From NCBI GenBank assembly GCA_029261055.1, contig JAJDCA010000066.1, positions 157 through 64,156 on the forward strand: a DNA stretch of 64,000 bases, given 5' to 3'. Made by a program: the position numbers and the translations under genes. Shown one piece after another: positions 3,818 to 64,000 of this stretch. Below the pieces are notes generated by a model. The model was not told where the DNA came from, made no database searches, and worked only from the letters and a program-made list of their open reading frames with translations. Positions within the stretch are counted from its first letter, which is position 1. The number at the start of each line of letters is the position of its first letter. The DNA is from Candidatus Omnitrophota bacterium (GTDB lineage: Bacteria > Omnitrophota > Gorgyraeia > Zapsychrales > Zapsychraceae).

Positions 3818-3900
3818 TGAAGTCTCCCCGGGGCAAGCCTCGAGGAATTAAATCCGTTGGAGATTGGCTAAATAATTTGTTCAGCCAATCTCTTAATTAA
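3818..3900 (+). promoter_or_regulatory. conserved leader element (GGGGCAAGCCTCG core, downstream hairpin, then TAATTAAAT), copy A
   Basis: gaagtctccccggggcaagcctcgaggaattaaat, then hairpin gagattggc/gccaatctc (3860-3892), then ttaattaaat, RBS and ATG at 3920. Related copies at 51644-51723 and 57374-57462. Confidence 0.4.
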
Positions 3901-16900: not shown

Positions 16901-18765
16901 GCTTAATTCCTCAAGCAGCAGAAGAAATAATTACATTGGAAAACAAAATGGATGGCATTAATCCTTATTCTGTCCAGAGGTATTCTCCTTTTATGCGAAA
17001 ATTCATTCCAAAACAAGCTCTTAGGATGGGAGACAATTATTCCCATAAACCTAGGATAAGTGATGATAAAGAAAATACATGTTGTATCATTATGCCGGCT
17101 AATCACCTGGGGCATTCCAGACGTGTTGGGCAAAGAATAGGGGATACTAATTTCTTCCTTGGGCAGGTTCCTTATAGGGGATTACTTAATACGCCTACAA
17201 ATAAAAATGAATCAAATGATTTAAAAGATCGCACTACCCATTTTCTGGGGCATGATTTTAATAATGACATCGATACGCAGGCCGGCAAACATTTGGAAGC
17301 TTATATTAATTCAGATGATCATCATATGAAACACATACAGCATACACATCAATCTGTTCTTTTGGTTGAGGGAGCTTTTGGTTTTGCTTCACTTCTTGGG
17401 TATCCTGTTTTTAATCGTAATTCAATGTTTGTGGGCGATTTTCCTCTGCCATCTTTGGGTGGACCGCTGCGTATTGAAGAACCCAAGATGTATCGATGGG
17501 TCGTCGGCCCATTGTTACTTAACACGGTAGCAGCTGCTAATGATAATATTGCAGGCGGACAAAAGCGTCATTTAGAAAATCGATTATATCGCAATTCTTA
17601 CCAAGACCTTACCGAAGTTGTGGGAGGGAACATTGCGGGTGATTTTTACGAAGCGGCCAAAGAGAAATATTACAAAATACTTCCAGAGAAATACAAAAAA
17701 GATTTATGGGGAGATTTATATAATCGACTTATCGTTTTAGCGAATGTTTTTCTTGAAGCTGGGACTGAAGTTAATTTAACAACCAAGCATAAAGAAAAGG
17801 CCTTAGAAGAACGTCAATTGAGAGCCCAATCCATTTCACGATTAGCATTAAAACGAAGCAAGAAAGTTATTAAATTAGAGAAAAATCCAGATGAAAATTT
17901 AAAACAGGAGATAAAAGATATTGATTTAATGATTCTCGACTATGCCGATCATTTTGGTTATTACGCTCCACAAAATACTAAAAATAAAAATTATAATCCG
18001 ATAAATCCTGAAGAAGATTATTTTTATAAAATCAAGGTTGATGGAAATTATTTAAAATGGCAAGCGGTATATCCTGATATGGAAGTCGCTGATCAGAATG
18101 GAGTTTCTTCAGTCAAGAGCAGTGAATGGAAAAATTTGCAAAAAAAATCAGGTGAAACCCGACTAAGTAATTGGGTAAAAGGAGAAACTATTTCTTTAGA
18201 AAATGGCCGGTCCATTCTTTTAGACGAACTGCCAGATAACGATATTGAAATAATTGTACCGGGCTTACGCTCCGACCTTGAAAAAGAATATTTAAAAGAA
18301 GTTCAACAAATTATTATAAAACAGCTTAAAGCCGATGGTAATCAAATGATTATCTGGCCAGATATGGTTGCAGCCGCTAAGCAAAGAAAAAAAGATTCCG
18401 CCATGGCAACAAAAAATGTAAAAAATAACCTTACTTTTAATACAAAACAGACTATAAATGAAGTCGGTGGTATCGATCTTAATCCTGATTTATTAAATTT
18501 ACAAATCAAACGTGATGGAAATGGCGTGCCGTTACCAGTAGCGATGCAGCCTATTGAAAATATGCATATTGAAGGGTTTTTCCCTATTATTATCAATATT
18601 ACACCTGTCAATCTTCCACTTCTTGGTTTTGGAGACACTCTTCCGAAAGAAAACTATCCCAAACCATCACCTGAACTCAGCTTTTGGGAAGAACAAGAGA
18701 GAAAAGCTTTTCTGAGAAGTAAATTAGGTGATAGAAATACACAACTAATACAAGAAAACACCTAA
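13990..18765 (+). CDS. giant secreted protein (1591 aa) with a conserved N-terminal domain of unknown function; paralog of 53880-57287
   Basis: Uninterrupted 4.8-kb ORF with a signal-peptide-like N-terminus (MYRILSAFIAIVFLSTTIV). The first ~350 aa are ~55-60% identical to the N-terminus of the 1135-aa protein at 53880 (LNLPVPGTMV...IKG...DPL.FDF; WVNLSPYE.NRII...GQTEMG.DLL.QDYLLKQLT.SLMYPE.ELG; IPRKYFSGG). The rest is unique and carries no domain I recognise. Confidence 0.7.
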   Translation: MHIYTTKKRSNLMYRILSAFIAIVFLSTTIVPRGYTQTVVLPTATILNLPVPGTMVGITEGFTPAIIKGMTIHPDNPLEFDFIVGRGDKNLQGDDLKKEGIKIIKYFLAALTTPKEDMWVNLSPYEKNRIIAEGFGQTEMGGDLLSQDYLLKQLTSSLMYPEDELGGDFWEKVHKKAYEQFGTTDIPMNTFNKIWIVPENAMVYEHESSAFVVGRHLKVMLEQDFVAMDHQNSGMQGIKFEVTTDNIERKSTITTELIREILIPEIEREVNEGENFANLRQIYNSMILATWYKQNLKESLLGQVYIDKNKILGVDVEDKDIKHKIYNQYIQAFKKGVYNYIKEDYDSVTHQVIPRKYFSGGTLWVNEISEVDNLEGINLKPKMIPNKTDASILTSIVDAGDGADTIYIEEVMNQYDGSMLTVQSELVRLRNDLPLNFSGNSDEIMEIKNWPKVEQTVKNISDATKQLILLSTVKNNLFRESVQKEVGFIYAIAYFRQLLPNDKKKVIEDFNTLGHKNTAAWLMENNNLHLDELKAKIQDKFEINLNQETVEYIKMHDETVRRSRGLRLAADSLKISTSDLDVIFKNQSLLDVILGLRKGAVVEIRQPLNNLEKVLRRLRLAEGEAIQFVHLGKNQYYVYEEHQLKRLAQDNDLNYGLHRSGLNHLIQLDMAKKQGIFFEEANKTINTDAQKNIHRISSSITLSDTNRTMYFDEKEKFWRADKTASQIFEIERVGAERSYIATIQRAKGFKNVLESQLENFLIFNVQTPITVIDDSNETELEINIKTVKEFQKKYQIEIKHITKKEWDEEYGYYAKYLKKTWEQQLNQEVLPNTIKEFLLETEILQKNIINDEKIVEVLRSPEFYHTSGFRNRQFLMAVGEPIIHGWDDDAPAHVYAVTDKKRDQLREDALNDKKPIMQNMFQKVGKMINTTIKSEKAFYKELAKNDNYDNPKIKEILDNYFGYDPQDDHKGLIPQAAEEIITLENKMDGINPYSVQRYSPFMRKFIPKQALRMGDNYSHKPRISDDKENTCCIIMPANHLGHSRRVGQRIGDTNFFLGQVPYRGLLNTPTNKNESNDLKDRTTHFLGHDFNNDIDTQAGKHLEAYINSDDHHMKHIQHTHQSVLLVEGAFGFASLLGYPVFNRNSMFVGDFPLPSLGGPLRIEEPKMYRWVVGPLLLNTVAAANDNIAGGQKRHLENRLYRNSYQDLTEVVGGNIAGDFYEAAKEKYYKILPEKYKKDLWGDLYNRLIVLANVFLEAGTEVNLTTKHKEKALEERQLRAQSISRLALKRSKKVIKLEKNPDENLKQEIKDIDLMILDYADHFGYYAPQNTKNKNYNPINPEEDYFYKIKVDGNYLKWQAVYPDMEVADQNGVSSVKSSEWKNLQKKSGETRLSNWVKGETISLENGRSILLDELPDNDIEIIVPGLRSDLEKEYLKEVQQIIIKQLKADGNQMIIWPDMVAAAKQRKKDSAMATKNVKNNLTFNTKQTINEVGGIDLNPDLLNLQIKRDGNGVPLPVAMQPIENMHIEGFFPIIINITPVNLPLLGFGDTLPKENYPKPSPELSFWEEQERKAFLRSKLGDRNTQLIQENT

Positions 18766-38659: not shown

Positions 38660-39088
38660 ATGGCCAAGAAAGTTGCAAAAGTTGGTATAAAAAAAGAGAG
38701 TGGATATCTTTATTTTGTCGACAAAGCTGGTGATATTTCTTGTGCAAAGATGGCCCGTGGCAACAAAAAAGGGGGTAAACCCAAAAAAGTTGCAAAAGTC
38801 GGTATAGAAAAAGAATCAGGATTTCTTTACTTCATCGACAAAAACGGAGATATCTCCTGCGCTAAGATGGTTCGTGGTGGAAAGAAAAAGAAAGCCACTA
38901 AGAAAAAAGCCGCTAAGAAGACAACGAAGAAAAAAGTAGTTAAAAAAGCAACAAAGAAAACAGCAACAAAAAAAACAGCTACTAAGAAAAAAGCTGTCAA
39001 AAAAGCTGTAACAAAGAAAAAAGCAACAAAGAAAACAGCTACTAAAAAAAAAGCTACTAAGAAAAAAGCAACAAAAAAAAGAAAATAA
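38660..39088 (+). CDS. lysine-rich histone H1-like basic protein with a duplicated ~35-aa N-terminal module
   Basis: 142 aa. Two copies of KKVAKVGI.KESG.LYF.DK.GDISCAKM.RG, followed by a K/A/T-rich tail (KKKATKKKAAKKTTKKK...). Strong RBS AAAGGAGG. Confidence 0.6.
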   Translation: MAKKVAKVGIKKESGYLYFVDKAGDISCAKMARGNKKGGKPKKVAKVGIEKESGFLYFIDKNGDISCAKMVRGGKKKKATKKKAAKKTTKKKVVKKATKKTATKKTATKKKAVKKAVTKKKATKKTATKKKATKKKATKKRK

Positions 39089-39128
39089 ACCATTTCAAAC
39101 GGCCCTCGTATACTTCGATCTGTTCGAC

Positions 39129-48925: not shown

Positions 48926-49510
48926 ATGAAAAGTAAAAACGTTTATATTATTGCTGGATCAAACGGTTCTGGGAAGACAACTTTTGCCAAAACGTTTTTA
49001 CCCGAGTACGCCAAGTGTATTCGATTTATCAATGCGGATTTGATTGCGGCAGGATTATCACCCTTTTTGCCTCAACAAGTCGCCATCAAATCAGGCAAAC
49101 TTGTCTTGGAACAAATCAAGGAATATGCAGAAGCTGGTATCGATTTTTGTTTTGAAACAACCATGTCCGGAACAACTTATCTGAAATATTTTAAAATGTT
49201 GAAAGAAAAAGGCTACAAAATACATATTTTCTTTTTATGGATTCCAAGTGCGCAATTAGCGATGATCCGCATTAAAGACCGTGTCGCTCAGGGAGGGCAT
49301 GATGTTCCTGTGAAAGATATAAAACGTCGCTTTGAACGTAGCCTTAACAAATTCTTCACTGAATACCGTTTATTAACTGATAAATGGATTTTATTTGATA
49401 ACGCCGAAGCCACACCAAAAATTATCGCTAAAAAATCTAATGCTCATATCGATATTATTAATGCCGATAAATTTAAAAAGATTACAAAAAAAATTGGAAT
49501 AACATTATGA
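48926..49510 (+). CDS. zeta-toxin-like P-loop kinase (Zeta_toxin/AAA_33 family)
   Basis: 194 aa. Walker A IIAGSNGSGKTTFAK, Walker B-like DFCFETT and the overall zeta/PezT-like layout. Confidence 0.7.
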   Translation: MKSKNVYIIAGSNGSGKTTFAKTFLPEYAKCIRFINADLIAAGLSPFLPQQVAIKSGKLVLEQIKEYAEAGIDFCFETTMSGTTYLKYFKMLKEKGYKIHIFFLWIPSAQLAMIRIKDRVAQGGHDVPVKDIKRRFERSLNKFFTEYRLLTDKWILFDNAEATPKIIAKKSNAHIDIINADKFKKITKKIGITL

Positions 49511-51552: not shown

Positions 51553-51643
51553 CGAATGAATAAACAAAGAGTATAGTGCAAACAATTAGGAATTGAAAAA
51601 AATAATTTACACATATTTAATAAAAAACCTCGTCGATTCAACT

Positions 51644-51723
51644 GAATCTCCTCGGGGCAAGCCTCGGGAAATTAGACCCTTTTGGAATTTCTTTAAAACT
51701 AGAAATTCCTAATTAAATTAAAC
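51644..51723 (+). promoter_or_regulatory. conserved leader element, copy B, within a ~320-nt 5' leader
   Basis: gaatctcctcggggcaagcctcgggaaattag, then hairpin ggaatttct/agaaattcc (51684-51709), then taattaaattaaac. Confidence 0.4.
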
Positions 51724-52968: not shown

Positions 52969-53751
52969 ATGCTAAAAATTAAAAAAATTCTAAGTCGTCA
53001 AAATAACCAAATCAAATGCCTCCGTAAATTATCCCTAAAGAAGTATCGCCATCAAACAAACACATTTACCGTCGAGAATTTAGCCATCATTTTCGATGCC
53101 TTAAAAAGCGATTATACATTCAAAGAATTATTTGTAACGCAGGATTTTATTGATCGACATAAAGAAAAATTTCAATATCTACAAAAACATGCCGCCTCAG
53201 CCGAATATTATTTAATTAATGAACCTTTGAATAAATATGCTTCACAACTCGACACCCCCGCTGGAATCATCGCTGTTTATGAGCAAACACCCTCTAATTT
53301 AGATCAAAGCCAGTCCGCCGTTTATCTAAACGGCATTAAAGACCCTGGTAATCTTGGCACAATCCTACGCACAGCCTTAGCCTTTAATGTACCCAACATC
53401 ATCGTGGATCCTACGTGTGTGGACGTTTATAATTTTAAAACTATTAGCGCGGCTAAAGATTCGATTTTTAAATTGAATATTACCGAAGACAAGCAGGGGA
53501 CTTGGCTAAAGGAGCATAAAGATATCTGGCCTATTTACGTGGCGAATTCCCAAGGTGGGGTGGCCTTATCAAAAGTGAAGGGGGCAAGAAAATTCTGTCT
53601 GGTTTTAGGTAACGAAAGCCACGGCGTGAGTAAAGATATCATCAAATTGGCTGATAAAAACATCTATATCGAAATCTCCGAACAAATTGAATCACTCAAT
53701 GTCGCTACCGCTGCTGCTATTTTACTACACAGATTACAACAAAAAACATAA
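52969..53751 (+). CDS. SpoU/TrmH-family RNA 2'-O-methyltransferase
   Basis: 260 aa. SPOUT motifs NPGNLGTILRTA, LVLGNESHGVS, NVATAAAILL. Confidence 0.75.
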   Translation: MLKIKKILSRQNNQIKCLRKLSLKKYRHQTNTFTVENLAIIFDALKSDYTFKELFVTQDFIDRHKEKFQYLQKHAASAEYYLINEPLNKYASQLDTPAGIIAVYEQTPSNLDQSQSAVYLNGIKDPGNLGTILRTALAFNVPNIIVDPTCVDVYNFKTISAAKDSIFKLNITEDKQGTWLKEHKDIWPIYVANSQGGVALSKVKGARKFCLVLGNESHGVSKDIIKLADKNIYIEISEQIESLNVATAAAILLHRLQQKT

Positions 53752-53879
53752 TGATGTTTGAGCAAATATGGCAATTAAGGAAACCATATAGTATACTTAA
53801 AGGAGAAAAAATTAAACGGAAATCAATAAAACCTATTCTTATGAAATCGGTTTTTATATTTTTTAGAAAATAATATTTT

Positions 53880-56800
53880 ATGAAATTACAATTTTCATTA
53901 AAATCTCAAATTATTAGTAACTTTGTCATTTTGACATTTGTATCTAGCTTGATTCTCCCTCCATCCAAGGTACAAGCCCAGACAGCACCTGCATTAACAA
54001 AAAGCGGATTAAATCTTCCTGTTCCCGGGACAATGGTACCATTGAGTGAATCATTTTTTCCTGTGGTGATAAAAGGAATAAAGGTATTTCCAGAGGATCC
54101 GCTAAAATTTGATTTTATTATGAATATGCCTGAGTCTGAATTAGAAGGCGCTGATTTAGAAAATAAAGCATTTAAACTTGTGAAATACTTTTTAGCTTCA
54201 CTCACCGTTCCTGAGAAAGATTTATGGGTTAACCTCTCTCCTTACGAAGAAAATCGTATCATTCCTGAGCAACTTGGACAAACAGAAATGGGTCGTGATT
54301 TGTTGGCACAGGATTATTTGCTAAAACAATTGACGGCATCTTTGATGTATCCGGAGGAGGAACTAGGAGAAGAATTTTGGGATCGAATATATAAAGAATC
54401 TTATGAAAAATTCGGAACAACGGATGTTCCGATAAATACATTTCATAAAGTTTGGATTATTCCTGATAAAGCGGTTGTCCATGAACAAGGAACAACTGCT
54501 TTTGTAACGGAAAGTTATTTAAAGGTAATGTTAGAAAAAGATTATTTAGCTTCCCAAAAAGGCACAAAAACCGCCCCTTCATCACAAGAAAAAGATGATT
54601 TAGAATCAAAAATTATTAAAGAGGTTATCATTCCTGCCATTGAAGAAGAAGTTAACTATGGAAAGAATTTCATTCTATTACGGCAAATTTATCATTCTTT
54701 GATTCTTGCTAAATGGTTTAAAACACGCATGAAGAGTACTTTATTAGGGAAAAATTATGCAGACAAAAGTAAAATCGTTGGCATTGAATTGGAAGATAAA
54801 GACATTTCAGAAAAAATTTATCAACAGTATGTCGAATCTTTTAAAGTAGGGGTATATGATCTAATTCGGGAAGAATATGATCCCATGACAGAGTCTATTA
54901 TTCCGAGAAAATATTTTTCCGGAGGGCTTGTTTTGGAAACACCACTTGTTATTCAAAATATCAATGGTGTAAGTATGGCCATGCTTGTGAATGATTCATT
55001 TAGTAAAGTAGCTTCCTTTACTGTAAGAATTAATCCTATTTCCTCTGGTGATAAATCAATGAGTTCGGCGGCAGATGATCTTCTTGTAAAAATAAAGCGT
55101 CGGGTTAAAAGCGAGAGCTTTACTATTATTGATGAGCCTCTAGAAGAGCTAAAAGGTCTTATTGGAAATGACAGTAAAGCTGCGAGTCAATACAAAGAAG
55201 CCGTTATTACTTTTGCCGATGGGCTACTTGAAAAGATAAAAGATCTTTCTAATCGCGAAAAATTTAATATTATTGACGGATATCTGGAACAACTAAAAGA
55301 ACTTAGTGAGGAACACACATATGTTGTCGATCAATTCAAAGAAGCCGTTATTGCTTTTGCAGATGGCTTAGTTAAAAAGATAAAAAGACTTTCTGATGAA
55401 AAGAAATTTAATATTATTGACGGATATCTGAACCAACTAAAAGAGCTTAGTGAGGAATATACATATGTTGTCGATCAATATGAAACAGCAAATTTTTATT
55501 ATCAAGAGTCTTTGCCGAGGGATAATTTATCCGGAGTTGATGAAGAAATTTATAAAAGGACTACCGAAATTAGAAAAAATCTAAATAGGGGCAATTTTAA
55601 AAAAGTGCAGGAACTTCATATAGAGAACATAGACACTGTGAAAAAACTTTCCAATCCAGAAAAAGAAGAAAAATATGGTAGACTTATCGTTAAAACATTT
55701 CTAGAAGGTCAGATAGATTCGATGAACAGAGAACAAAATTATGGAGATTTCTTTACATTAGTACAAAATGAGAGGTTTGAAGAAAATCTAAAGAATTTTG
55801 GGCATTTGCAATCAATCACGACACATAAAACTCTACAAGAAATGTATACGGATATGCTGAGAAAAAAAGCATTATTTATGAAAAACAAATTTAAGGCTCT
55901 TCCTGATGAAGAAAAATTTAGTGTTAATATAAAGAAAGAGGGCATCAGCTTTAATGATAATATTGCTGCCATAGTAGCGATTTTTTCTATAAATCAAAAG
56001 GATACAGTGATAGGGAAACATTTGATAGAAATGTTTGAGACCTACTCTGCGAGTTTATTAAGGGTATTAGAAAATGAATGGGGAAAAAATAAAAAACCCT
56101 CTTTTAAATTGATTTATACATCAGAAAAAATCCTGGAAGCTATGAAAGAAATTACAAATATTGTCCAGCTGCATGACGGACTCACGGAAAATCTTAAAAC
56201 AGCAACTTCAACATACCAGACGGCTTTAGAAAACGCCGGAATATCAGATTCCATAAGAAAGAAATTGTTAAATTTTGCAATATACTTTTTGCAAACAATT
56301 TACAACGCCAGAAGTTATGATGCAAATAAATTATTTTCTTCTTTGAAGGAAGATCCCGAGCTTCTTCAATACCCCCATTTGGAAAACGTTTATGCTGAAG
56401 GATTCTCATATTTATTTTCTGTATTCAAAGAAAATAGATTATTCTCGAGTTGGGAGAGCCTGTCTTCCGGTTGGAATATTCACCTTTTTGATTATTTGAA
56501 AACATTTTTACTGGAGAGAAATGGTGAATTTACGTTAATCAAAAAAGTTTATGAGACAAATCTAGGAGAATATGCGGTTAATTTTTCTCGAGCAATTCAG
56601 AATCAACTTGATAAAGATACAGATTGGGATGGAAGAATGACTACTCCTATTTCTGCGGTCTTAAACTCAGAACCAGTAAATATTCCAAGCGCATCAAACA
56701 TACTCTTTAAATTTTGGGAGTTCTTAGTGGATTATCCTGTTGAAAGTGTAGAGGATGTTTATGTAGAAACATTAGAAAATATTTTTAATGCAATAGAAAG

Positions 56801-57287
56801 GAATTATTCTTCAAATATTTTTGAATCGGTAAGAGAAGATTTTATGAAAACTATTCGTAGAAGATTAAATGATGCCGATCCGAATACATTTGTAAAAATA
56901 AGAGAATTTCTTGCTCATCAAGAAACTAATCCTCATAAAAATCGTCAAATAGACGCAGTTGAAAACACGCCTATAGCTTTCCCATCATTAAACCCATGGG
57001 GGCAGATTCCACGTAGAATAGTTATTTCTAATAATAGTGATGGGAGTTTTACAATTATGTTCTCTGATCTGAGTATGCTTAATAATAAAACAATATCGAC
57101 TAAAGGGGGGATTGATTTGGTTGATACAAAGATAGATATTCGGCAAGATAATGCGTTTGAACGGTTTAATAACGAAAATGTATTATTAGATTCTGCCTCA
57201 TTTGTAGGGGGGTCCTTTGATATTAATGGTGTAACCATGATTCCTAATGTTTCAGCTTATCTTAATCCTAACCCACTATCGTATTAA
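53880..57287 (+). CDS. giant secreted protein (1135 aa); paralog of 13990-18765 through the shared N-terminal ~350-aa domain
   Basis: Signal-peptide-like N-terminus ending ...VQAQT. The N-terminal domain aligns along its length with giant protein 1. The central region has an internal ~60-aa duplication (..KESFTIIDEPLEELKGL.. / ..REKFNIIDGYLEQLKELSEEHTYVVDQFKEAVIAFADGL.. x2). Confidence 0.7.
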   Translation: MKLQFSLKSQIISNFVILTFVSSLILPPSKVQAQTAPALTKSGLNLPVPGTMVPLSESFFPVVIKGIKVFPEDPLKFDFIMNMPESELEGADLENKAFKLVKYFLASLTVPEKDLWVNLSPYEENRIIPEQLGQTEMGRDLLAQDYLLKQLTASLMYPEEELGEEFWDRIYKESYEKFGTTDVPINTFHKVWIIPDKAVVHEQGTTAFVTESYLKVMLEKDYLASQKGTKTAPSSQEKDDLESKIIKEVIIPAIEEEVNYGKNFILLRQIYHSLILAKWFKTRMKSTLLGKNYADKSKIVGIELEDKDISEKIYQQYVESFKVGVYDLIREEYDPMTESIIPRKYFSGGLVLETPLVIQNINGVSMAMLVNDSFSKVASFTVRINPISSGDKSMSSAADDLLVKIKRRVKSESFTIIDEPLEELKGLIGNDSKAASQYKEAVITFADGLLEKIKDLSNREKFNIIDGYLEQLKELSEEHTYVVDQFKEAVIAFADGLVKKIKRLSDEKKFNIIDGYLNQLKELSEEYTYVVDQYETANFYYQESLPRDNLSGVDEEIYKRTTEIRKNLNRGNFKKVQELHIENIDTVKKLSNPEKEEKYGRLIVKTFLEGQIDSMNREQNYGDFFTLVQNERFEENLKNFGHLQSITTHKTLQEMYTDMLRKKALFMKNKFKALPDEEKFSVNIKKEGISFNDNIAAIVAIFSINQKDTVIGKHLIEMFETYSASLLRVLENEWGKNKKPSFKLIYTSEKILEAMKEITNIVQLHDGLTENLKTATSTYQTALENAGISDSIRKKLLNFAIYFLQTIYNARSYDANKLFSSLKEDPELLQYPHLENVYAEGFSYLFSVFKENRLFSSWESLSSGWNIHLFDYLKTFLLERNGEFTLIKKVYETNLGEYAVNFSRAIQNQLDKDTDWDGRMTTPISAVLNSEPVNIPSASNILFKFWEFLVDYPVESVEDVYVETLENIFNAIERNYSSNIFESVREDFMKTIRRRLNDADPNTFVKIREFLAHQETNPHKNRQIDAVENTPIAFPSLNPWGQIPRRIVISNNSDGSFTIMFSDLSMLNNKTISTKGGIDLVDTKIDIRQDNAFERFNNENVLLDSASFVGGSFDINGVTMIPNVSAYLNPNPLSY

Positions 57288-57373
57288 CAAAACTAATAGA
57301 ATACAACAAAAAACATAATGATTGCATTTTGATGAAAAATGCATTATACTTAATAATGAATCAAGGGTATGAA

Positions 57374-57462
57374 CAGGGCAAGCCCTGGACCCTATCAGTC
57401 GCAGCGAACTGCAGGGTATTAAACCCATTTAGAATTTCGTTAAAGCATCGAAATTCCTAAAT
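57374..57462 (+). promoter_or_regulatory. conserved leader element, copy C (more divergent), upstream of vapB
   Basis: cagggcaagccctgg..., then hairpin gaatttcg/cgaaattc (57432-57456), then ctaaatgaaaggagg. Confidence 0.35.
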
Positions 57463-57477
57463 GAAAGGAGGTTGACT

Positions 57478-57726
57478 ATGGCATCATTACAGATAAGAGA
57501 CATCCCTCTCAATATTGAAAAAAAACTAAAAAATGAAGCAAAAAAATATCATCGTAGTTTAACGCAACAGGCTATTGCGACATTAGAAAAAGGGTTAGGG
57601 TTTACAGAGCCTTCTAAAGAAAAACGCAAAAAAACTATTCAGAATTTATTAGATAATCCAATCGTAGAAGACACCTCTAAACTAAAGGATCATATTCCAT
57701 TAATTAGAGAGGACCGCAACCGATGA
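57478..57726 (+). CDS. ribbon-helix-helix antitoxin (VapB/FitA-like)
   Basis: MASLQIRDIPLNIEKKLKNEAKKYHRSLTQQAIATLEKGL is an Arc/MetJ-type RHH N-terminus. AAAGGAGG RBS. Overlaps the downstream PIN gene by ATGA. Confidence 0.65.
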   Translation: MASLQIRDIPLNIEKKLKNEAKKYHRSLTQQAIATLEKGLGFTEPSKEKRKKTIQNLLDNPIVEDTSKLKDHIPLIREDRNR

Positions 57727-58121
57727 TCATCGTCCTGGATCCCAGCGCAGCTATTGAAATTGTATTAAATAAGAAAAAAGCAAAAAATTTAATACCGCAC
57801 CTCGCGGCAGCAGATTGGGTAATTGCTCCACGATTATATGTTTCTGAAATCAACAATGTTTTCTGGAAATATTATGAATTCACACAACTTTCTAAAGAAG
57901 TTTGTGAAACAGCTATTGAAAAATCATTAGATTTAGTTGAAGAACTGTTTAATGAAAGTGATTTTTACCGGGAAGCCTTTGCGTTAGCCTGTTTAACACG
58001 CTCATCCGTGTATGATATGTTTTATCTCACCCTGGCCCGCCGAAACGATGCTCATCTTATGACTCTAGACACCAAACTTATGGCAACGGCGAAAAAACAA
58101 TCTATTAAATATTTTTTGTAA
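57723..58121 (+). CDS. vapC: PIN-domain toxin
   Basis: 132 aa. Acidic residues at PIN positions (IVLDPSA ... E ... D ... TLD). Confidence 0.75.
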   Translation: MIIVLDPSAAIEIVLNKKKAKNLIPHLAAADWVIAPRLYVSEINNVFWKYYEFTQLSKEVCETAIEKSLDLVEELFNESDFYREAFALACLTRSSVYDMFYLTLARRNDAHLMTLDTKLMATAKKQSIKYFL

Positions 58122-58181: not shown

Positions 58182-61100
58182 ATGAAAATAAAATATCTTG
58201 CAGTAGCTTGCTTATTACTCGTAGCTTTTACCACCTCACCACACTCCTTTGCCAATCCAATAGACATTGAACAATCCCTCACGCAGGCCAATCAATTCTG
58301 GCACGAAAAATCCTTTCGCCAGGCGGCTGAACATTATGCCAAATTCCTTACACAGACAGACCTTAATAAGGAAGAACAACGTGAAGTGGCGTTTAAATGG
58401 GCAGATGCGAGTTGGCGGACACAGGAAAATCGACGTTACGAAGAGGCGGTTGATGCCCTCAAAACACTGATTGAGTCTGATACAGACGACCGCTGGCGGG
58501 CTGAGGCCAATGAATCATTGGCTGAACATTATTTGCAAGTGGATCGTTGGACACATCAAGAAGACATCAAACAGTATTTCCAAAATGCCCGTGAATATTG
58601 GGCTTCTTCTAAAAATATTGAATTAGCCCGCAAACGTTTCATCAAGGTAAGTTTTACGTTTGGTGAATATCTACGCAACAATTGGGGCTGGCATTACAAT
58701 CAAATCCAACCCGTCAGCGCATTTCGTAAAACTCTTGAAACTATCCCAGATACGCCTCAATCCGGATTACATGTCCTTTATGAAGAAATACTTCAAGTTG
58801 CCACATCAGACGAAGACAAGGCCAAAGCCTATTACGCGCTGGCGATGAGTTATATGAACCAATATTATGGACAATATAAAGAAGATCTGGCTGAAAAGTA
58901 TTTCCAGAAAGTCATTGATGAATTTTCTAAAAGCGAATGGTTGGATGATGCCTATTATTATTTAGGCCAATACCATCAAAAAAACCAGGACTATGTTAAA
59001 GCCTTAAATCCTTATCAGGGATTAATACAAAGATTCAAACCGGGTGAATCCCAGTGGCTGGATAATGCCCGCAACCAAATCAAAAATATTACATCACCCA
59101 CCATTAACCTCAGCAACGGCTATACTTATCTTCCAGGATCGGAAATACTATTTTCACTCAATTGGCACAATGTATCGAAGGCAACCTTTACTATTTATAA
59201 AATGGATATTGTTAAGGAACTAGCATTGGATTTGAATAAACCGGCAGATAACCGCGAACGCGGGGTTGATAATTACCAAGACATCCTCAAACAAATCGTA
59301 GATTACCGCCGCTATCAAAGCTTTCCTAAAGTTTTATCCTGGCAAAAACCCCTTAAGAATGAAGGAAAACACAAACAACATAATGCCACCCAATCACTGG
59401 CCGACTGGCAAGCCGATGAAGGAGAAAAAGATATTGATCCAAAATCTGGCATTCTTGAACCCGGCGCGTATTTACTTTTAGTTAATGCGGCAGGTCAAAC
59501 GGCCTACGATTTAATTTTAGTGACCGAGACGGCTTTGATTTCTAAAACAGGGGGACACTCAGCCCTTTTCTTTACGATGGACAGCAAAACCGGTAAACCC
59601 AAGCCTGAAGCGACGATCAAATATCATTACCGTTATTACGACAGCAACCGTAATGATTGGTTGTGGGAAGAAGACCAGGGCGTCACCGACTCCAAAGGCT
59701 TACTGAAAATATCGCTGAAAAAAAACAACCCGCATCATTATGACAATCAGCATCAAATCTTTGCTACCGCCTCAGACGGTGTAATGCAAGCTTTTACGCA
59801 AAATAATTATTATAACTATTCGAATCAATCCAACCAATGGCACCTATACGCCCACACGGACCGCCCGGCGTATCGTCCGAATGAAAAGGTGTCCTTTAAA
59901 GCGACACTGCGGGGATACGATGATGAAGCATTTAACACGCCCTCCGGCAAAAAAGTTAAGGGCTGGATTCAGGATGCGCGGGGTCAGAAAGTCTTTGAAA
60001 AAACATTTATCCTGAATGATTTTGGTTCTCTTTATGACAGTTTCACTTTAGATGAAAAGGCTACCTTAGGCGAGTATATCCTTTATATCTATTCTGAAGA
60101 AGACAACGCATACTTGGCCCAATCCACCTTGTTCCGTTTGGAAGAATACAAACTACCGGAATTTTTGGTAAACATTAATCCCAAAGCTAAAGAAGGGCAA
60201 GAGGCGGCTGCTTATCAATTGGGCGACACGGTCAAAATCGAAGTTGCTGCTGAATATTATTTCGGCGGGCCGGTGGCTGAGGCAGAGGTAGAATATTTGG
60301 TCTATCAAAACCCCTATTATCATTATTACCGTCAACCGCGCGAATACGGTTGGTACTACGACGATATGTATCCGAATCCCCACAATTATTACAACCAAGG
60401 CCAGCTGTTGCATAAAGAAAAAATTAAAACAGATACCCACGGCAAGGCAATTTTTGAATTTCAAACACTGAAAAAAAGTGATTATGATTTAAGCTACCGT
60501 ATCGAAGTGCGCGTGGTCGATCAAAGTCGACGGGAAATTACAGCTAACCGAGAAATGAAAGTGACGCGTCAGGCCTTTTATGCCTATTTGACGCCCAAAA
60601 ATAATCTCTACCGTCCCGGTGACAAAGCTGAGATTGATATTAAAACCATCACCGCTAATAACGACCCGGTATCTGTTGACGGTAAAGTCACGGTATCACG
60701 TAATTGGTGGAAAAATCCGATTATTAAAAAAAGTACCGTCATAGAACAAGGCCGTTACGATGCGACAGAACTGTTTTCTAAATTTGTTAAAACCAATAAA
60801 AAAGGGGAAACCATCTTTTCCTTTGAACCGGGGCAAGATGGCTATTACATAATTGCCTTTACTGGATTTGATAACAAAGGTAAAGAAGTCAAAACACAAA
60901 CCAATATTTTTGTCTGTGACAAAGGAAGCCGGGATTTAGGCTACCGACACGGGGGCATCCAGATTATTGCCGAAAAAGATACCTACACAATTGGGGAAAC
61001 GGCCCGCGTGATGCTTACGGCGGACAAGCCGGATACCTGGGTATTATTTTCTGTGGAGGCGGACGAAATCTTTGATTACAATCTGTATCATTTAGATGGT

Positions 61101-64000
61101 GCCGTTAAGCTTTTAGAATTTCCTGTTCAAGAAAGCTTTACACCAAATATATTTCTAAACGCGATTTCTGGGCAAGACCACCAGTTGAAAAATCATACCC
61201 TAGCTCTGGTTGTACCTCCGGAAGAAAAATTTCTGAATATCAAGATCCAATCGGATAAGGAAGTCTATCGCCCACAGGAAGAAGGACACTTTGACGTTGA
61301 AGTCACCGACAGCCAGGGCCACCCGGTTTCAGGTGAAATGGCTTTAGGCATCGTGGATGCCAGTGTGTATTACATTCAACAAGATTATGCCGGCGACATC
61401 CGTCAATTTTTCTACGGTACCAAACGGCCGCATTCCGTGCAGACCAACGCGAGTTTTTATCAACGATCTTACGTGAAACTTGTCCGTGGGGATCAAAATC
61501 AAATAATAGATGAACGTATTACGCGTCAGGCTGGATTAACCGAAGCGAAAATATTTAGCGACTCTAGTGATACATTTGGTGGAGGACGTTTAGAACAGGA
61601 TAAATTTGCTCTACGCTCAATGAATGCCATTGCCCCAATGGGAGAAATGATTGATGCTTTAGAAAAAAAAGAAGGGAGGGGCTTTGCTAAATCTTCCCTG
61701 GCTTCCCCTGCAAAGAAAATGAAGTCCCGAAAAAATTTACCAGCATCTCAAGCCTCACCAGCACCAACCAAGGCGGGACTTGCCCAACCAGCTGTCCGTC
61801 AAGACTTCCGCTCCACGGTCTTCTGGCAACCGACGATTATCACGGATGAAGACGGCAAGGCGAGCGTCACAGTCAAATTTCCGGATTCCTTAACCACGTG
61901 GCGCACCACGGCACGTTCACTTACACGCGAGACCGCGGTGGGCACAGTGACTCACGAAAATAAAACCAGCAAAGATATCCTCGTACGCCTGCAGGCTCCG
62001 CGCTTTTTCACAGAACGCGACGAAGTCACCATTTCCGCCAACGTACACAATTACACCGATACCGAACAAAAAATTAAAGTGAACCTTAAAGCCGAAGGTC
62101 TGGATGTTCTTGGCGAAAAATCCCTTTGGGTGACCGTTGAAGCAAATGGAGAACAACGTGTGGATTGGGCCACCGTGGCCCAACAACAAGGTCAGGCCTC
62201 ATTAACAGTGATGGCCCAGGCGCAAGACGACGCCGATGCTGTCCTGCGTACGTACCCTATCATTCCACACGGCATTGAGAAATTTATCGCGCAATCAATC
62301 GTACTTAAAAGTAAAGAAGGCGAGGCTGTTAAAAACCAGTTCACACTCGATCTACCCAAAAAACGTATTAAAGAATCCACTTCGTTACAATTAACATTTT
62401 CTCCTTCACTAGCCGCCGCCTTGTTAGATGCCTTACCGTATTTAGCGGATTATCCGTACGGCTGTGTCGAACAAACAATGAGTCGATTCTTGCCAGCCGT
62501 GACTGTGAAAAAAACAATGAAGGACTTGGGTTTAACGGATACAGAAATTGCGACTTACTTAAACGATGTACTGGAACCCCGTCAAGACCCTGAACATCCA
62601 AAACGCCGCAAAGATGCCACACTGTCCAAACTCAATCAAATGACCAAAGCTAGCCTGGACCGTCTTTACGATTTTCAACACAGCGACGGCGGCTGGGGTT
62701 GGTGGAAAGAAGGGAGCAGCGACTGGTTTATGAGTGCCTACGTGGTGTGGGGATTGAGTCTCGCCAAAGAAGCCGGCATCAAGGTAAAAGGCAAAGTTTT
62801 AAACCGTGCTGTGGACTTCTTGCAAAAACAACTCGTGGAAGAAGAAAATCAACCCGATATGCTCGCCTGGATGTTGCACGCCCTTTCGGTCGCCAAATCA
62901 AAAAGTACATTTGAAAACAAACAAAGCCAACGGCTCTGGGAACAAAGGGAAAAACTTAATCCTTATACTCGCGCCTTATTTGCTTTGAGCGAACATTATC
63001 GCGGTTCGACCGAACACGCCGTGATTTTGGCCCGTAATCTGGCCAACGGCTTACACGAAGATAAAGATAACGGCACGGCCCACTGGGGTGAAGCCGGCAT
63101 TCACTACCGTTTTAGCGAAGGCGGGGTAGAGGCCACGGCCTTTGGCATTAAGGCATTGGCCAACATTCTTCCGGACAGTGAATATCTGGAACCCGCCGTC
63201 AAATGGCTGGCCTTAAACCGAAGAGGAGGCCACTGGAAAAATACACGAGATACGGCGATTGCCATTCTCGGCCTTTCCGATTATCTAAAAATTTCTAAAG
63301 AACTTGTCCCTAATTTTGACTACACGGTCACTGTCAACGGCAAGATTGCACAAAAAGGACACGTTGATCGCAGCAATATCTTCCAATTCAACCGTATTAT
63401 CACCTTGCCCAACGACGCCCTGAAAGATGGAACCAACACCGTTGACGTTAACATCAACGGCACAGGGGCCCTGTACGTTGCCGGTTACCTCAAATATTTC
63501 ACACTGGAAGAAAACATCACACCAGCCGGTAACGAAGTATTTGTCGAACGCAAATACTTTATCAACGACACCGCTGAAACCCTTTTAAAAGGCTACACCA
63601 CCGACTGGCGACCGCTTAAAGCTGGCGACACCGTCAAAAGCGGAGACCGCATCAAAGTCGAAATTACATTGGAAGCCAAGAACCACTACGAATACTTAAT
63701 TGTCGAAGACTACAAACCGGCGGGCCTTGAGGCTGTCGAACTCAAAAGCGGCACCGGTTACGCCCAACAGCTAGATCACAAAGGCAAAGAAACCGGCCGC
63801 ACAACCTGGCTTTACCAAGAATACCGCGACCAAAAAGCCGCCATCTTTATCGACAAACTCAAACAAGGCAAACACCGCATAGAATACGAACTAAGGGCTG
63901 AAATCCCCGGCCGCTTCCACGGCATGCCCAACCAGGTCCACGCAATGTACGTGCCGGAGATCCGGGCGAATAGTAGTGAAATGATTTTAACGGTAGGGGA
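58182..64000 (+). CDS. bacterial alpha-2-macroglobulin family protein (3' partial; runs past the window end)
   Basis: Signal peptide, N-terminal helical repeats, then a long beta-rich region. Thioester-region motif DYPYGCVEQTMSRFLP at ~62440-62490 (CxEQ), followed by DFQHSDGGWGWW (the thioester-containing domain). RBS GGAGGG. Confidence 0.75.
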   Translation, partial: MKIKYLAVACLLLVAFTTSPHSFANPIDIEQSLTQANQFWHEKSFRQAAEHYAKFLTQTDLNKEEQREVAFKWADASWRTQENRRYEEAVDALKTLIESDTDDRWRAEANESLAEHYLQVDRWTHQEDIKQYFQNAREYWASSKNIELARKRFIKVSFTFGEYLRNNWGWHYNQIQPVSAFRKTLETIPDTPQSGLHVLYEEILQVATSDEDKAKAYYALAMSYMNQYYGQYKEDLAEKYFQKVIDEFSKSEWLDDAYYYLGQYHQKNQDYVKALNPYQGLIQRFKPGESQWLDNARNQIKNITSPTINLSNGYTYLPGSEILFSLNWHNVSKATFTIYKMDIVKELALDLNKPADNRERGVDNYQDILKQIVDYRRYQSFPKVLSWQKPLKNEGKHKQHNATQSLADWQADEGEKDIDPKSGILEPGAYLLLVNAAGQTAYDLILVTETALISKTGGHSALFFTMDSKTGKPKPEATIKYHYRYYDSNRNDWLWEEDQGVTDSKGLLKISLKKNNPHHYDNQHQIFATASDGVMQAFTQNNYYNYSNQSNQWHLYAHTDRPAYRPNEKVSFKATLRGYDDEAFNTPSGKKVKGWIQDARGQKVFEKTFILNDFGSLYDSFTLDEKATLGEYILYIYSEEDNAYLAQSTLFRLEEYKLPEFLVNINPKAKEGQEAAAYQLGDTVKIEVAAEYYFGGPVAEAEVEYLVYQNPYYHYYRQPREYGWYYDDMYPNPHNYYNQGQLLHKEKIKTDTHGKAIFEFQTLKKSDYDLSYRIEVRVVDQSRREITANREMKVTRQAFYAYLTPKNNLYRPGDKAEIDIKTITANNDPVSVDGKVTVSRNWWKNPIIKKSTVIEQGRYDATELFSKFVKTNKKGETIFSFEPGQDGYYIIAFTGFDNKGKEVKTQTNIFVCDKGSRDLGYRHGGIQIIAEKDTYTIGETARVMLTADKPDTWVLFSVEADEIFDYNLYHLDGAVKLLEFPVQESFTPNIFLNAISGQDHQLKNHTLALVVPPEEKFLNIKIQSDKEVYRPQEEGHFDVEVTDSQGHPVSGEMALGIVDASVYYIQQDYAGDIRQFFYGTKRPHSVQTNASFYQRSYVKLVRGDQNQIIDERITRQAGLTEAKIFSDSSDTFGGGRLEQDKFALRSMNAIAPMGEMIDALEKKEGRGFAKSSLASPAKKMKSRKNLPASQASPAPTKAGLAQPAVRQDFRSTVFWQPTIITDEDGKASVTVKFPDSLTTWRTTARSLTRETAVGTVTHENKTSKDILVRLQAPRFFTERDEVTISANVHNYTDTEQKIKVNLKAEGLDVLGEKSLWVTVEANGEQRVDWATVAQQQGQASLTVMAQAQDDADAVLRTYPIIPHGIEKFIAQSIVLKSKEGEAVKNQFTLDLPKKRIKESTSLQLTFSPSLAAALLDALPYLADYPYGCVEQTMSRFLPAVTVKKTMKDLGLTDTEIATYLNDVLEPRQDPEHPKRRKDATLSKLNQMTKASLDRLYDFQHSDGGWGWWKEGSSDWFMSAYVVWGLSLAKEAGIKVKGKVLNRAVDFLQKQLVEEENQPDMLAWMLHALSVAKSKSTFENKQSQRLWEQREKLNPYTRALFALSEHYRGSTEHAVILARNLANGLHEDKDNGTAHWGEAGIHYRFSEGGVEATAFGIKALANILPDSEYLEPAVKWLALNRRGGHWKNTRDTAIAILGLSDYLKISKELVPNFDYTVTVNGKIAQKGHVDRSNIFQFNRIITLPNDALKDGTNTVDVNINGTGALYVAGYLKYFTLEENITPAGNEVFVERKYFINDTAETLLKGYTTDWRPLKAGDTVKSGDRIKVEITLEAKNHYEYLIVEDYKPAGLEAVELKSGTGYAQQLDHKGKETGRTTWLYQEYRDQKAAIFIDKLKQGKHRIEYELRAEIPGRFHGMPNQVHAMYVPEIRANSSEMILTVG

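What the first reader, a model, noticed from the sequence alone, without database searches (positions are those of the whole stretch)
53880..57287. Giant secreted protein 2 (1135 aa) with an internal duplication, sitting immediately upstream of vapBC and an alpha-2-macroglobulin
Paralog of giant protein 1 through the shared N-terminal domain. Its unique central region carries a tandem ~60-aa duplication (ERKFNIIDGYL.QLKELSEE.TYVVDQ..). Locus order is giant protein, then RHH-PIN toxin-antitoxin, then a thioester A2M: a secreted or surface effector-type gene beside a TA pair and a bacterial protease-trapping defence protein looks like an accessory island. A hairpin (tgcatttt..aaaatgca at 57318-57338) follows the stop.
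Basis: partly seen in the sequence, partly recalled or inferred. Interest (0 to 1): 0.7.

Follow-up and report, generated by a model that had tools for sequence, protein, structure and literature searches.

The report
Exported Omnitrophota modular protein, orphan payload
The gene encodes one member of a very large, apparently undescribed family of exported proteins found only in Omnitrophota bacteria, in which a conserved front domain and a short conserved tail bracket an interchangeable middle part; here the middle part is unique to this organism and the gene looks like a recent single-gene insertion.

Summary
The ORF (53880-57287, 1135 aa) is real. So are the paralogy with 13990-18765, the internal duplication (48 aa, not ~60), vapBC and a thioester alpha-2-macroglobulin (A2M).

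In relatives this domain is followed by unrelated payloads, including full PEPCK, phosphoglucomutase, GT2, kinase and radical-SAM domains. Most then carry a ~60-aa C-terminal motif beginning GGIDLNP. Payloads hold 0.064% cysteine, against 1.37% in cytoplasmic proteins of the window, which argues for export.

The query's payload (aa 350-1075) has no homologue in 5.8 billion proteins or 1.84 billion cluster representatives. Its C-terminal motif is degenerate.

A 25-bp direct repeat (53731-53755 and 57298-57322) brackets this gene alone. VapBC and A2M lie outside the repeat, and A2M deviates in GC the opposite way. The "effector + TA + A2M island" reading is therefore only partly supported. The protein's function is inferred, not shown.

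The parts
53731..53755 (+). Left copy of the 25-bp direct repeat, AGATTACAACAAAAAACATAATGAT. It covers the last six codons and the stop of the SpoU-type methyltransferase gene plus 4 nt.
   Evidence: 24 of 25 identical to 57298-57322 and unique in the window. None of 100 shuffles gave 2 or more matches at up to 3 mismatches. SpoU in relatives ends 2-3 residues earlier.
53880..57287 (+). CDS of the 1135-aa protein (the finding).
   Evidence: The probability of no stop in the 780 codons after the N-domain, at this base composition, is about 1e-30.
53880..53978 (+). Predicted Sec-type signal peptide, aa 1-33. It has a basic n-region (K2, K8), a hydrophobic core (IISNFVILTFVSSLIL) and the sequence PPSKVQA|Q. 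The AQ pair is at least 90% conserved in the family.
   Evidence: Sequence; family conservation (consensus R..S.FI...F..S...PP....AQ). Cleavage is inferred; no signal-peptide predictor was available.
54009..54926 (+). Conserved N-terminal family domain, aa 44-349, from LNLPVPGTMV to RKYFSGG. It is a mixed alpha/beta domain.
   Evidence: 3815 proteins with E <= 0.001 among 8000 scored candidates, 54-59% identity for the very best hits (44-59% across the 120 listed); 53 invariant columns, all kept by the query. AF2 core pLDDT about 85-95. No Pfam or NCBIfam match. No PDB sequence relative or structural relative.
54927..57104 (+). Payload, aa 350-1075. It is an ORFan, cysteine-free and rich in Lys, Glu, Asn, Ile and Leu.
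   Evidence: no hit among 5.8e9 proteins; no hit by phmmer against 1.84e9 representatives (both searches used aa 381-1135); no similarity to the payloads of 120 family members. Composition.
55071..55160 (+). Degenerate partial copy of the internal repeat, aa 398-427.
   Evidence: Read from the translation: ADDLLVKIKRRVKSESFTIIDEPLEELKGL against ADGLLEKIKDLSNREKFNIIDGYLEQLKEL, 17 of 30 identical. Not tested statistically.
55188..55475 (+). Tandem duplication of 2 x 144 nt: aa 437-484 and aa 485-532.
   Evidence: TRF: period 144, 2.0 copies, 86% matches, score 451; 21 nt and 10 aa differences; dN/dS about 0.5 on a very small sample.
57105..57284 (+). Degenerate copy of the family's C-terminal motif, aa 1076-1135: GGIDLVDTKIDIRQDN...GGSFDINGVTMIPNVSAYLNPNPLSY.
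   Evidence: aligns in register with 38 family motifs, but the near-invariant P and final G are lost. HMM E 0.24, first 23 positions only; best BLAST 30.8 bits lands on the motif of P0093; shuffles give 23.7 +/- 2.0, and 1 of 200 reaches it.
57298..57322 (+). Right copy of the 25-bp direct repeat, AGAATACAACAAAAAACATAATGAT. It starts 11 nt after the stop codon.
57323..57343 (+). It may be the original 3' hairpin of spoU.
   Evidence: sequence; not called as a terminator. The link to spoU is inference from the direct repeat.
57385..57462 (+). One of three copies of a two-hairpin intergenic element. The others are at 3818-3898 and 51642-51712. It lies just upstream of the vapB ribosome-binding site and belongs to the context, not to the gene.
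   Evidence: (family D7), 84, 98: 17 predicted pairs, 6 with compensatory changes. No Rfam family.
13990..18765 (+). The paralogue (1591 aa). It has the same signal peptide and N-domain, an unrelated payload and a canonical C-terminal motif.
   Evidence: E 5e-124. C-motif HMM 88.4 bits, E 8e-27; 2 Cys in 1591 aa; no flanking direct repeat.
57472..58121 (+). Neighbour, not part: the vapBC-type pair (RHH 57472-57726, PIN 57723-58121).
   Evidence: It lies outside the repeat-bounded segment.
58182..64000 (+). Neighbour, not part: bacterial thioester alpha-2-macroglobulin, at least 1939 aa, running off the window. It is GC-rich relative to the rest of the window.
   Evidence: GCVEQ; GC 0.45, GC3 0.455.

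Best explanation
The gene encodes a Sec-exported member of a very large paralogous family of modular proteins seen so far only in Omnitrophota. The family plan has four parts:
1. A sequence-conserved signal peptide ending in A|Q.
2. A strongly conserved alpha/beta N-domain of about 306 aa.
3. An interchangeable payload.
4. A C-terminal motif of about 60 aa, GGI(D/N)(L/F)NP..LdLq...GF.PvIInI.P..nLP.LLG, usually followed by an acidic tail.

The most likely reading is that the two constant ends are handles. I infer that they are recognised by shared cell-envelope or export machinery, or bind a shared envelope component, and that the payload supplies the specific activity outside the cytoplasm.

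In this copy the payload is a fast-evolving, lineage-specific region. From its composition it is probably helical. It recently expanded by a 48-aa tandem duplication, and its C-terminal handle has decayed.

The gene arrived at, or was rearranged into, its present place immediately behind spoU as a single-gene segment of 3567 bp bounded by a 25-bp direct repeat. Its adjacency to vapBC and A2M is incidental.

Shown: family membership, the architecture, the orphan status of the payload, the cysteine depletion and the direct repeat. Inferred: signal-peptide cleavage, the final location (periplasm, surface, medium or a host cell), the handle function of the two ends, and the insertion mechanism.
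For: Family and architecture:
- more than 3,800 hits, all covering only the first ~30-43% of the query. The named ones are all Omnitrophota or Omnitrophica.
- 83 of the 120 best hits carry the C-terminal motif.
- there are 53 invariant N-domain columns, and the query keeps all of them.
- real enzyme payloads lie between the two constant ends. Examples are PEPCK_GTP (354 bits), PGM domains I-IV, GT2 (127 bits), radical SAM, response regulator, protein kinase and transketolase.

Export:
- signal-peptide features and a conserved AQ pair.
- cysteine is 0 of 1135 in the query and 2 of 1591 in the paralogue.
- 47 Cys in 73,524 payload residues (0.064%), against 1.37% in 28 cytoplasmic-type proteins of the window.
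- even the PEPCK, PGM and transketolase members have 0-1 Cys.

Orphan payload.

Coding status: (probability of an open frame by chance about 1e-30).

Insertion:
- the direct repeat is unique in the window, and 0 of 100 shuffles match it.
- in 4 of 7 relatives spoU is translationally coupled to a 545-aa FAD-protein gene that is absent from the window.
- the window's SpoU carries a 2-3-residue C-terminal extension encoded inside the repeat.

Not an island with its neighbours.
Against: - No experiment or signal-peptide predictor supports cleavage. The hydrophobic N-terminus could be an uncleaved membrane anchor.
- No partner machinery was identified. The one neighbourhood of another family member that was examined shows none.
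- The N-domain has no structural or sequence relative, so its handle role is argued only from conservation and position.
- The query's C-terminal motif is only marginally detectable.
- There is no obvious Shine-Dalgarno sequence before the ATG.
- The repeat-bounded segment carries no integrase or transposase. A 25-bp duplication could arise in other ways.
- No empty site was found.
- Two other family members and the paralogue lack flanking repeats.
Confidence: 0.6

Rival explanations
1. First reader's reading. The protein, the vapBC pair and the A2M form one accessory or defence island: a secreted effector, stabilised by a toxin-antitoxin pair, beside a protease-trapping defence protein.
For: The genes are adjacent and co-directional. 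vapBC and A2M are real. The query is an ORFan-bearing gene with low GC3.
Against: The 25-bp direct repeat encloses the query alone. A2M is GC-rich while the query is GC-poor. Nearly every long ORF in the 64-kb window is co-directional, so orientation carries no information. No relative shows this arrangement. Another family member sits among housekeeping genes. PADLOC finds nothing for the protein.
Confidence: 0.1
2. Membrane-tethered periplasmic protein. The N-terminal hydrophobic segment is an uncleaved signal anchor. [quoted passage not shown]
For: Positive charges precede a hydrophobic stretch of about 16-18 residues. The segment is conserved in sequence across paralogues, which is unusual for ordinary cleaved signal peptides. 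Cysteine depletion fits any extracytoplasmic location.
Against: The conserved small-residue site (V-Q-A|Q; AQ at least 90% conserved) just after the hydrophobic core looks like a signal peptidase I site. ATP-, GTP- and SAM-dependent payloads would have no substrates in the periplasm, although this objection applies equally to a surface location.
Confidence: 0.2
3. Type 1 secretion-like adhesin logic. The C-terminal motif plus acidic tail is an uncleaved C-terminal secretion signal, and the conserved N-domain is a retention plug that keeps the protein on the surface, as in LapA-type adhesins.
For: The family has a conserved C-terminal block followed by an acidic tail and very low cysteine, together with a constant N-terminal folded domain.
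Against: A Sec-type signal peptide is present, which T1SS substrates lack. Pfam finds no RTX or calcium-binding repeats. No ABC transporter, membrane-fusion or TolC genes lie beside the two window copies or beside P0109. The query's own C-terminal block is degenerate.
Confidence: 0.05
4. A decaying, non-functional paralogue: a recently duplicated or inserted copy whose payload and C-terminal motif are drifting towards pseudogenisation.
For: The C-motif is degenerate. The payload is an ORFan. There is no clear ribosome-binding site. This gene has the lowest GC3 of the long ORFs.
Against: A 3.4-kb frame stays open in 33% GC DNA (probability about 1e-30 for the last 780 codons). All 53 invariant N-domain residues are retained. 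dN/dS between the internal repeats is about 0.5, not about 1, on a small sample. The complete absence of cysteine is maintained over 1135 residues.
Confidence: 0.05

Closest known systems
Type IX secretion cargo proteins of Bacteroidota (Sec signal peptide + functional domains + conserved C-terminal domain)
   Same: Both have an N-terminal Sec signal, highly diverse functional modules, and a conserved C-terminal block of roughly 60-100 residues shared by many paralogues in one genome. This comparison rests on my knowledge of T9SS and on the abstract of PMC11285876.
   Different: There is no Pfam or NCBIfam CTD match. The family adds a constant N-domain of about 306 aa that T9SS cargo lacks. 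Many payloads are cytoplasm-type enzymes rather than hydrolases or adhesins. From my own knowledge, T9SS is a feature of the Fibrobacterota-Chlorobiota-Bacteroidota group and not of the PVC group; whether this genome has one was not tested.
Polymorphic toxin and effector families with a constant N-terminal trafficking region and variable ends (Rhs, CdiA, LXG, MIX-type)
   Same: One conserved N-terminal module is joined to many unrelated modules, with several paralogues per genome and fast turnover of the variable part.
   Different: Here the variable part lies in the middle and a second conserved element closes the protein. Payloads seen are metabolic and signalling enzymes or HEAT, ankyrin or WD40 repeats, not toxins. 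No immunity gene pattern is present. The downstream vapBC is a self-contained pair.
Cell-envelope anchoring modules joined to variable enzymes (SLH-domain proteins of Firmicutes; dockerin-bearing cellulosome enzymes)
   Same: A signal peptide is followed by a constant anchoring module and a variable catalytic module, repeated across many paralogues.
   Different: There is no sequence or fold similarity to SLH or dockerin. The family has two constant ends, and its payloads are not typical extracellular hydrolases.
Very long Omnitrophota proteins ("Archaeovorins" and related; bioRxiv 10.1101/2023.11.21.568195 and 10.64898/2026.06.07.730766)
   Same: Same phylum. Both are predicted to be exported or membrane-associated, and both combine many enzyme-type Pfam domains in proteins with signal peptides.
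   Different: Those proteins are 10,000 to over 100,000 aa, lie beside type II secretion or Tad genes, and neither paper mentions this N-domain or C-motif. The family here spans 633-1964 aa among the best 120 hits.

Membership tests
Unnamed Omnitrophota N-domain / C-motif modular family (defined here) | Conserved N-domain of about 306 aa (LNLPxPGTMV ... RKYFSGG) with 53 invariant positions | tested here: met
   E 1e-130 to 1e-118 for the 120 best hits; all invariant columns are kept by the query.
Unnamed Omnitrophota N-domain / C-motif modular family (defined here) | Sec-type signal peptide with the conserved pattern ...PP....A|Q | tested here: met
   PPSKVQAQ at aa 27-34, with AQ at least 90% conserved. 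Cleavage itself was not tested.
Unnamed Omnitrophota N-domain / C-motif modular family (defined here) | C-terminal motif GGI(D/N)(L/F)NP...GF.PvIInI.P...LLG | tested here: inconclusive
   aligns in register and at the right position, with GGIDL kept. HMM E 0.24; 1 of 200 shuffles reaches the BLAST score. The near-invariant P and final G are lost.
Unnamed Omnitrophota N-domain / C-motif modular family (defined here) | Strong cysteine depletion | tested here: met
   0 Cys in 1135 aa; family median 0.08%; payloads 0.064% against 1.37% in cytoplasmic proteins.
Type IX secretion cargo | Recognisable CTD (Pfam or NCBIfam T9SS C-terminal target domain) | tested here: not met
   no family matched the query or the paralogue, which has the canonical motif.
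Type IX secretion cargo | T9SS machinery (PorK/L/M/N, Sov, PorU/V) in the genome | not testable with these tools
   Only a 64-kb window is available.
Polymorphic toxin with immunity gene | Variable C-terminal toxin domain followed by a cognate immunity gene | tested here: not met
   The extreme C-terminus is the conserved element, not the variable one. No toxin domain was found. The downstream genes are a complete RHH-PIN pair.
Type 1 secretion RTX adhesin or toxin | RTX nonapeptide repeats and no N-terminal signal peptide | tested here: not met
   No HemolysinCabind or other Pfam hit. A signal peptide is present.
Type V autotransporter / chlamydial Pmp | C-terminal beta-barrel translocator domain | tested here: not met
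   No Pfam hit. The C-terminal conserved block is only about 60 aa.
Integrative element / genomic islet | Flanking direct repeats (att-like or target-site duplication) | tested here: met
   24 of 25 identical, unique in the window, 0 of 100 shuffles.
Integrative element / genomic islet | Integrase or transposase within the bounded segment, or an observed empty site | tested here: not met
   The 3567-bp segment holds only this ORF. The empty-site 35-mer was not found in metagenome contigs.
VapBC toxin-antitoxin (neighbour) | Small RHH antitoxin gene overlapping a PIN-domain toxin gene | tested here: met
   PIN 25.4 bits against a cut-off of 23.6; RHH 22.1 bits against a cut-off of 27, which is a weak match.
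Bacterial alpha-2-macroglobulin (neighbour) | MG domains, bait region, thioester domain with CxEQ, MG10 | tested here: met
   (GCVEQ at aa 1428).

The most novel reading that the evidence does not exclude
The family is the cargo set of an undescribed Omnitrophota export or delivery route. The constant signal peptide plus N-domain and the C-terminal motif would act as a two-ended address label. Cysteine-free versions of normally cytoplasmic enzymes (PEPCK, phosphoglucomutase, transketolase, kinases, glycosyltransferases) and many orphan payloads, such as the one in this window, would be sent to the cell surface or into host or prey cells. This would be a molecular basis for the host-dependent lifestyle proposed for these ultra-small bacteria.
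Probability: 0.25. Interest if true: 0.85.

Novelty: new variant of a known kind. Interest (0 to 1): 0.6.

Why it matters
Omnitrophota are uncultured, mostly ultra-small bacteria thought to depend on or prey on other cells (PMC10066038). How they act on their partners is unknown.

A family of thousands of exported proteins shares one uncatalogued N-domain and one C-terminal motif. Its payloads range from orphan sequences to complete central-metabolism enzymes stripped of cysteine. That gives a concrete, testable entry point. One could ask where these proteins go, what recognises the two constant ends, and whether metabolic enzymes are delivered outside the cell.

For annotation, the two modules could be turned into profile models that label thousands of "hypothetical proteins". 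For this window specifically, the result separates a probable single-gene insertion from its unrelated neighbours.

Tried and rejected
1. Pfam, NCBIfam and PADLOC scans of the query and the paralogue found nothing.
2. A homology search with aa 381-1135 found nothing in the word-indexed 5.8e9 set or in the exhaustive phmmer search of 1.84e9 representatives.
4. A profile search against PDB sequences hit only junk coiled-coil columns.
5. I tested whether the start of the N-domain and the C-motif are homologous, as donor-strand-exchange-type polymerisation would suggest. hhalign aligned only 9 columns (GF.PvIi) at 5.7% probability, so I dropped the idea.
6. A profile search with the C-motif, meant to see whether it occurs without the N-domain, returned only short gene fragments of 60-116 aa. 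This is evidently a candidate-selection bias, so no conclusion follows.
7. Synteny around spoU in seven relatives is not conserved on either side, so it neither supports nor refutes an island.
8. Flanking direct repeats were sought around the paralogue and two other family members, and none was found.
9. Empty-site and occupied-site junction 35-mers gave 0 matches in metagenome contigs.
10. Rfam found nothing for the intergenic hairpins.
11. A literature search found no description of this domain or motif.
12. A first 72-sequence alignment failed internally.
13. Structure prediction of the payload (aa 350-1135) was not attempted.


Full report
**Observation.** The ORF 53880-57287 (+) of 1135 aa is present as described. 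It shares its first ~375 residues with the 1591-aa ORF 13990-18765: 50% identity, E 5e-124. tblastn finds no further copy in the window.

The internal duplication is real but has a period of 144 nt, or 48 aa. TRF reports 55187-55480, 2.0 copies and 86% matches. The copies are aa 437-484 and 485-532, with 21 nucleotide and 10 amino-acid differences. A weaker partial copy precedes them at aa 398-427 (by eye).

Downstream lie three features:
- An RHH gene at 57472-57726, a weak Pfam match.
- A PIN gene at 57723-58121 that overlaps the RHH gene by 4 nt.
- A thioester alpha-2-macroglobulin starting at 58182 and running off the window, with MG2, bait-region, A2M, TED and bMG10 domains and a GCVEQ motif.

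The hairpin sits at 57323-57343, not 57318-57338. It is AT-rich, lacks a T-tract and was not called as a terminator.

**Organism and family.** The SpoU-type methyltransferase just upstream is 62-69% identical to those of seven closest MAG contigs, five of them labelled Omnitrophota, including Ca. Aceula meridiana and Ca. Aceula lacicola.

A search with the whole protein returned 3815 proteins with E <= 0.001 among 8000 scored candidates. Every one of the best 120 matches only the first 28-43% of the query, at 44-59% identity. All hits that carry a taxon name are Omnitrophota or Omnitrophica; a few others are labelled only as hydrothermal vent metagenome.

Alignment shows a conserved hydrophobic leader with the consensus R..S.FI...F..S...PP....AQ. 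It is followed by a domain running from LNLPxPGTMV to RKYFSGG, aa 44-349 in the query. That domain has 53 invariant columns, and the query keeps all of them.

Behind this domain the proteins are unrelated to one another. Thirty-six of the 120 carry precomputed Pfam domains of many kinds. A direct scan confirmed complete enzyme domains in that position:
- PEPCK_GTP at 354 bits plus PEPCK_N.
- All four phosphoglucomutase domains.
- GT2.
- Radical SAM.
- A response-regulator receiver.
- A protein kinase.
- Transketolase-like domains.

Eighty-three of the 120 end with a conserved block of about 60 aa: GGI(D/N)(L/F)NP..LdLqIKRDGnGvPLPv..qpIenm.IeGF.PvIInItPv.nLP.LLG. An acidic tail usually follows, often closing with a phi-S-x-phi-(N) ending.

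The paralogue at 13990-18765 has the canonical block (88 bits, E 8e-27). The query has a degenerate one. MAFFT places its last 60 residues in register with 38 family motifs, and GGIDL is kept, but the near-invariant Pro and terminal Gly are lost. The HMM matches only the first 23 positions (E 0.24). The best BLAST hit (30.8 bits) falls on the motif of P0093, and 1 of 200 shuffles reaches that score.

**What the constant parts are.**
- Neither Pfam nor NCBIfam has a model that matches.
- A profile search against all PDB sequences gave nothing for the N-domain.
- AlphaFold2 models the core of the N-domain as a mixed alpha/beta domain with pLDDT about 85-95. This held both for a full-length relative and for the query's domain alone (mean pLDDT 70.5, pTM 0.67).
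- In the full-length model the GGIDL hairpin reached pLDDT 90 while its flanks were below 55. This hints that it packs against something, but no contact information is returned, so I leave it open.
- A short resemblance between the first strand of the N-domain (F.PvvIKG) and the C-motif (GF.PvIInI) is not homology by hhalign: 9 columns at 5.7% probability.

**Evidence for export.** The leader has basic residues before a hydrophobic core and a small-residue site, V-Q-A|Q. The AQ pair is at least 90% conserved.

Independently, the family is almost free of cysteine:
- 0 of 1135 residues in the query and 2 of 1591 in the paralogue.
- 42 of the 120 best hits have no cysteine at all.
- 47 Cys in 73,524 payload residues (0.064%), against 1.37% in 28 cytoplasmic-type proteins of the same window.

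Members carrying PEPCK, phosphoglucomutase or transketolase domains have 0-1 Cys. Only the radical-SAM member keeps nine. Cysteine exclusion from exported proteins is an established pattern in bacteria without periplasmic disulfide handling; that statement rests on my own knowledge. The exported A2M next door shows the same depletion, at 0.15%. I therefore regard extracytoplasmic location as well supported. Cleavage, and the final destination (periplasm, surface, medium or another cell), are inferred.

**The query's own payload.** Residues 381-1135 have no detectable relative. This holds among 5.8 billion clustered proteins, by exhaustive phmmer against 1.84 billion representatives, and among the payloads of 120 family members. 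The region is certainly coding, because the chance of an open frame over 780 codons at this composition is about 1e-30. It is rich in Lys, Glu, Asn, Ile and Leu, poor in Gly and Pro, and cysteine-free. From that composition I infer a mostly helical structure. No structure prediction was run on it, because there is no alignment to support one.

**Genomic setting.** The gene's GC (0.329; GC3 0.251) is at the low end of the window. It is matched by other lineage-specific genes, such as the paralogue (GC3 0.275) and the MORN-repeat genes. The query's own N-domain has the same low GC3 (0.256), so this is not a foreign signature. A2M is the compositional outlier in the opposite direction (GC 0.45, GC3 0.455).

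A repeat search found a 25-bp direct repeat that brackets the gene exactly:
- Left copy: 53731-53755, AGATTACAACAAAAAACATAATGAT. It covers the last six codons and stop of spoU plus 4 nt.
- Right copy: 57298-57322, with one mismatch, starting 11 nt after the query's stop.

The repeat is unique in the window, and no shuffle reproduces it.

In four of seven relatives spoU is translationally coupled to a 545-aa FAD-protein gene that is absent from the window. The window's SpoU is 2-3 residues longer than its relatives, and the extension is encoded inside the repeat. This fits a 3567-bp single-gene insertion or rearrangement at the 3' end of spoU. The AT-rich hairpin directly after the right repeat copy would then be the original 3' hairpin of spoU.

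Four points weigh against a mobile element:
- The segment carries no recombinase.
- The paralogue and two other family members lack such repeats.
- No empty site was found.
- Synteny around spoU is not conserved in any relative on either side.

VapBC and A2M lie outside the bounded segment. Another family member, in Ca. Aceula lacicola, sits among hydrogenase-maturation, MMPL and rubredoxin genes.

**Comparison with known systems.** The nearest analogies are:
- T9SS cargo: signal peptide + variable module + conserved C-terminal domain.
- Polymorphic toxins: constant N-terminal trafficking region + variable module.
- SLH- or dockerin-type anchoring modules.

Membership fails for each on tested defining features, as listed in the membership table. 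The papers on very long Omnitrophota proteins (bioRxiv 10.1101/2023.11.21.568195 and 10.64898/2026.06.07.730766) describe exported multi-enzyme proteins in the same phylum. The text passages I searched in them do not mention this domain or motif. Nor do the Omnitrophota survey (PMC10066038) or the Ace Lake study that named Ca. Aceula (PMC8542988). I found no description of the family in the searchable library. It may still exist in papers that are not held there.

**Verdict.** The "island" interpretation is only partly right. The gene is a member, with an orphan payload and a decayed C-terminal motif, of a large and apparently uncatalogued family of exported modular proteins in Omnitrophota. 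It was probably inserted on its own behind spoU.

The individual gene is of moderate interest. The family architecture it reveals is the more surprising result: two conserved ends bracketing interchangeable, cysteine-purged payloads that include central-metabolism enzymes.

Noticed in passing
window 53731-53755 and 57298-57322: A 25-bp direct repeat (24 of 25 identical, unique in the window) brackets the query gene exactly. The left copy is the 3' end of the spoU CDS.
   Followed up: yes
window 3818-3898, 51642-51712, 57385-57462: Three copies of an intergenic element with two hairpins. The first has a GCAA or CGAA tetraloop, and several pairs are kept by compensatory changes. The third copy lies between the query and the vapB ribosome-binding site. 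It has no Rfam match.
   Followed up: partly
window 58182-64000: The A2M gene is clearly GC-richer (0.45, GC3 0.455, rising to 0.48 at the window end) than the rest of the window (about 0.39). It may be the horizontally acquired gene of this neighbourhood.
   Followed up: no
window 1-64000: 37 of the 39 ORFs of at least 150 aa are on the + strand, and the two minus-strand ones overlap plus-strand genes. The whole 64 kb is co-directional, so gene orientation says nothing about operons or islands here.
   Followed up: no
window 38873-39094 and 43542-43640: There are lysine-rich repeats with a 15-nt period (KKA/T-type). One run lies in an ORF upstream of the MORN-repeat gene. A similar Lys-rich extension ([31 protein letters not shown]) sits at the N-terminus of GMP synthase, which is unusual for that enzyme.
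   Followed up: no
window 48926-49510: A zeta-toxin / AAA_33-type kinase gene lies directly after dnaE, with no obvious antitoxin partner in the ORF list.
   Followed up: no
window 3-164 and 288-449: A 162-nt direct repeat (81% identity) at the very start of the window. I did not examine it.
   Followed up: no
L002 10759-12396, L003 6147-7784 (also L004, L007): In relatives, spoU is translationally coupled (overlapping ATGA) to a 545-aa FAD-dependent protein gene. The window has no such gene.
   Followed up: partly
P0002, P0010 (family members): Some full-length family members lack the GGIDL motif and instead share a different C-terminal ending (...GVFQRV). This suggests a second class of C-terminal tag.
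   Followed up: no
P0122, P0143, P0146, P0182, P0208: Small ORFs of 80-115 aa that consist almost only of the C-terminal motif occur on long contigs (49-125 kb). They may be split genes or stand-alone motif proteins.
   Followed up: no
window 26404-28494 and 39129-40406: Two MORN-repeat proteins with hydrophobic N-terminal leaders that look like signal peptides (by eye) are the other markedly AT-rich genes of the window (GC 0.30 and 0.33). They share 51-nt repeat units.
   Followed up: no
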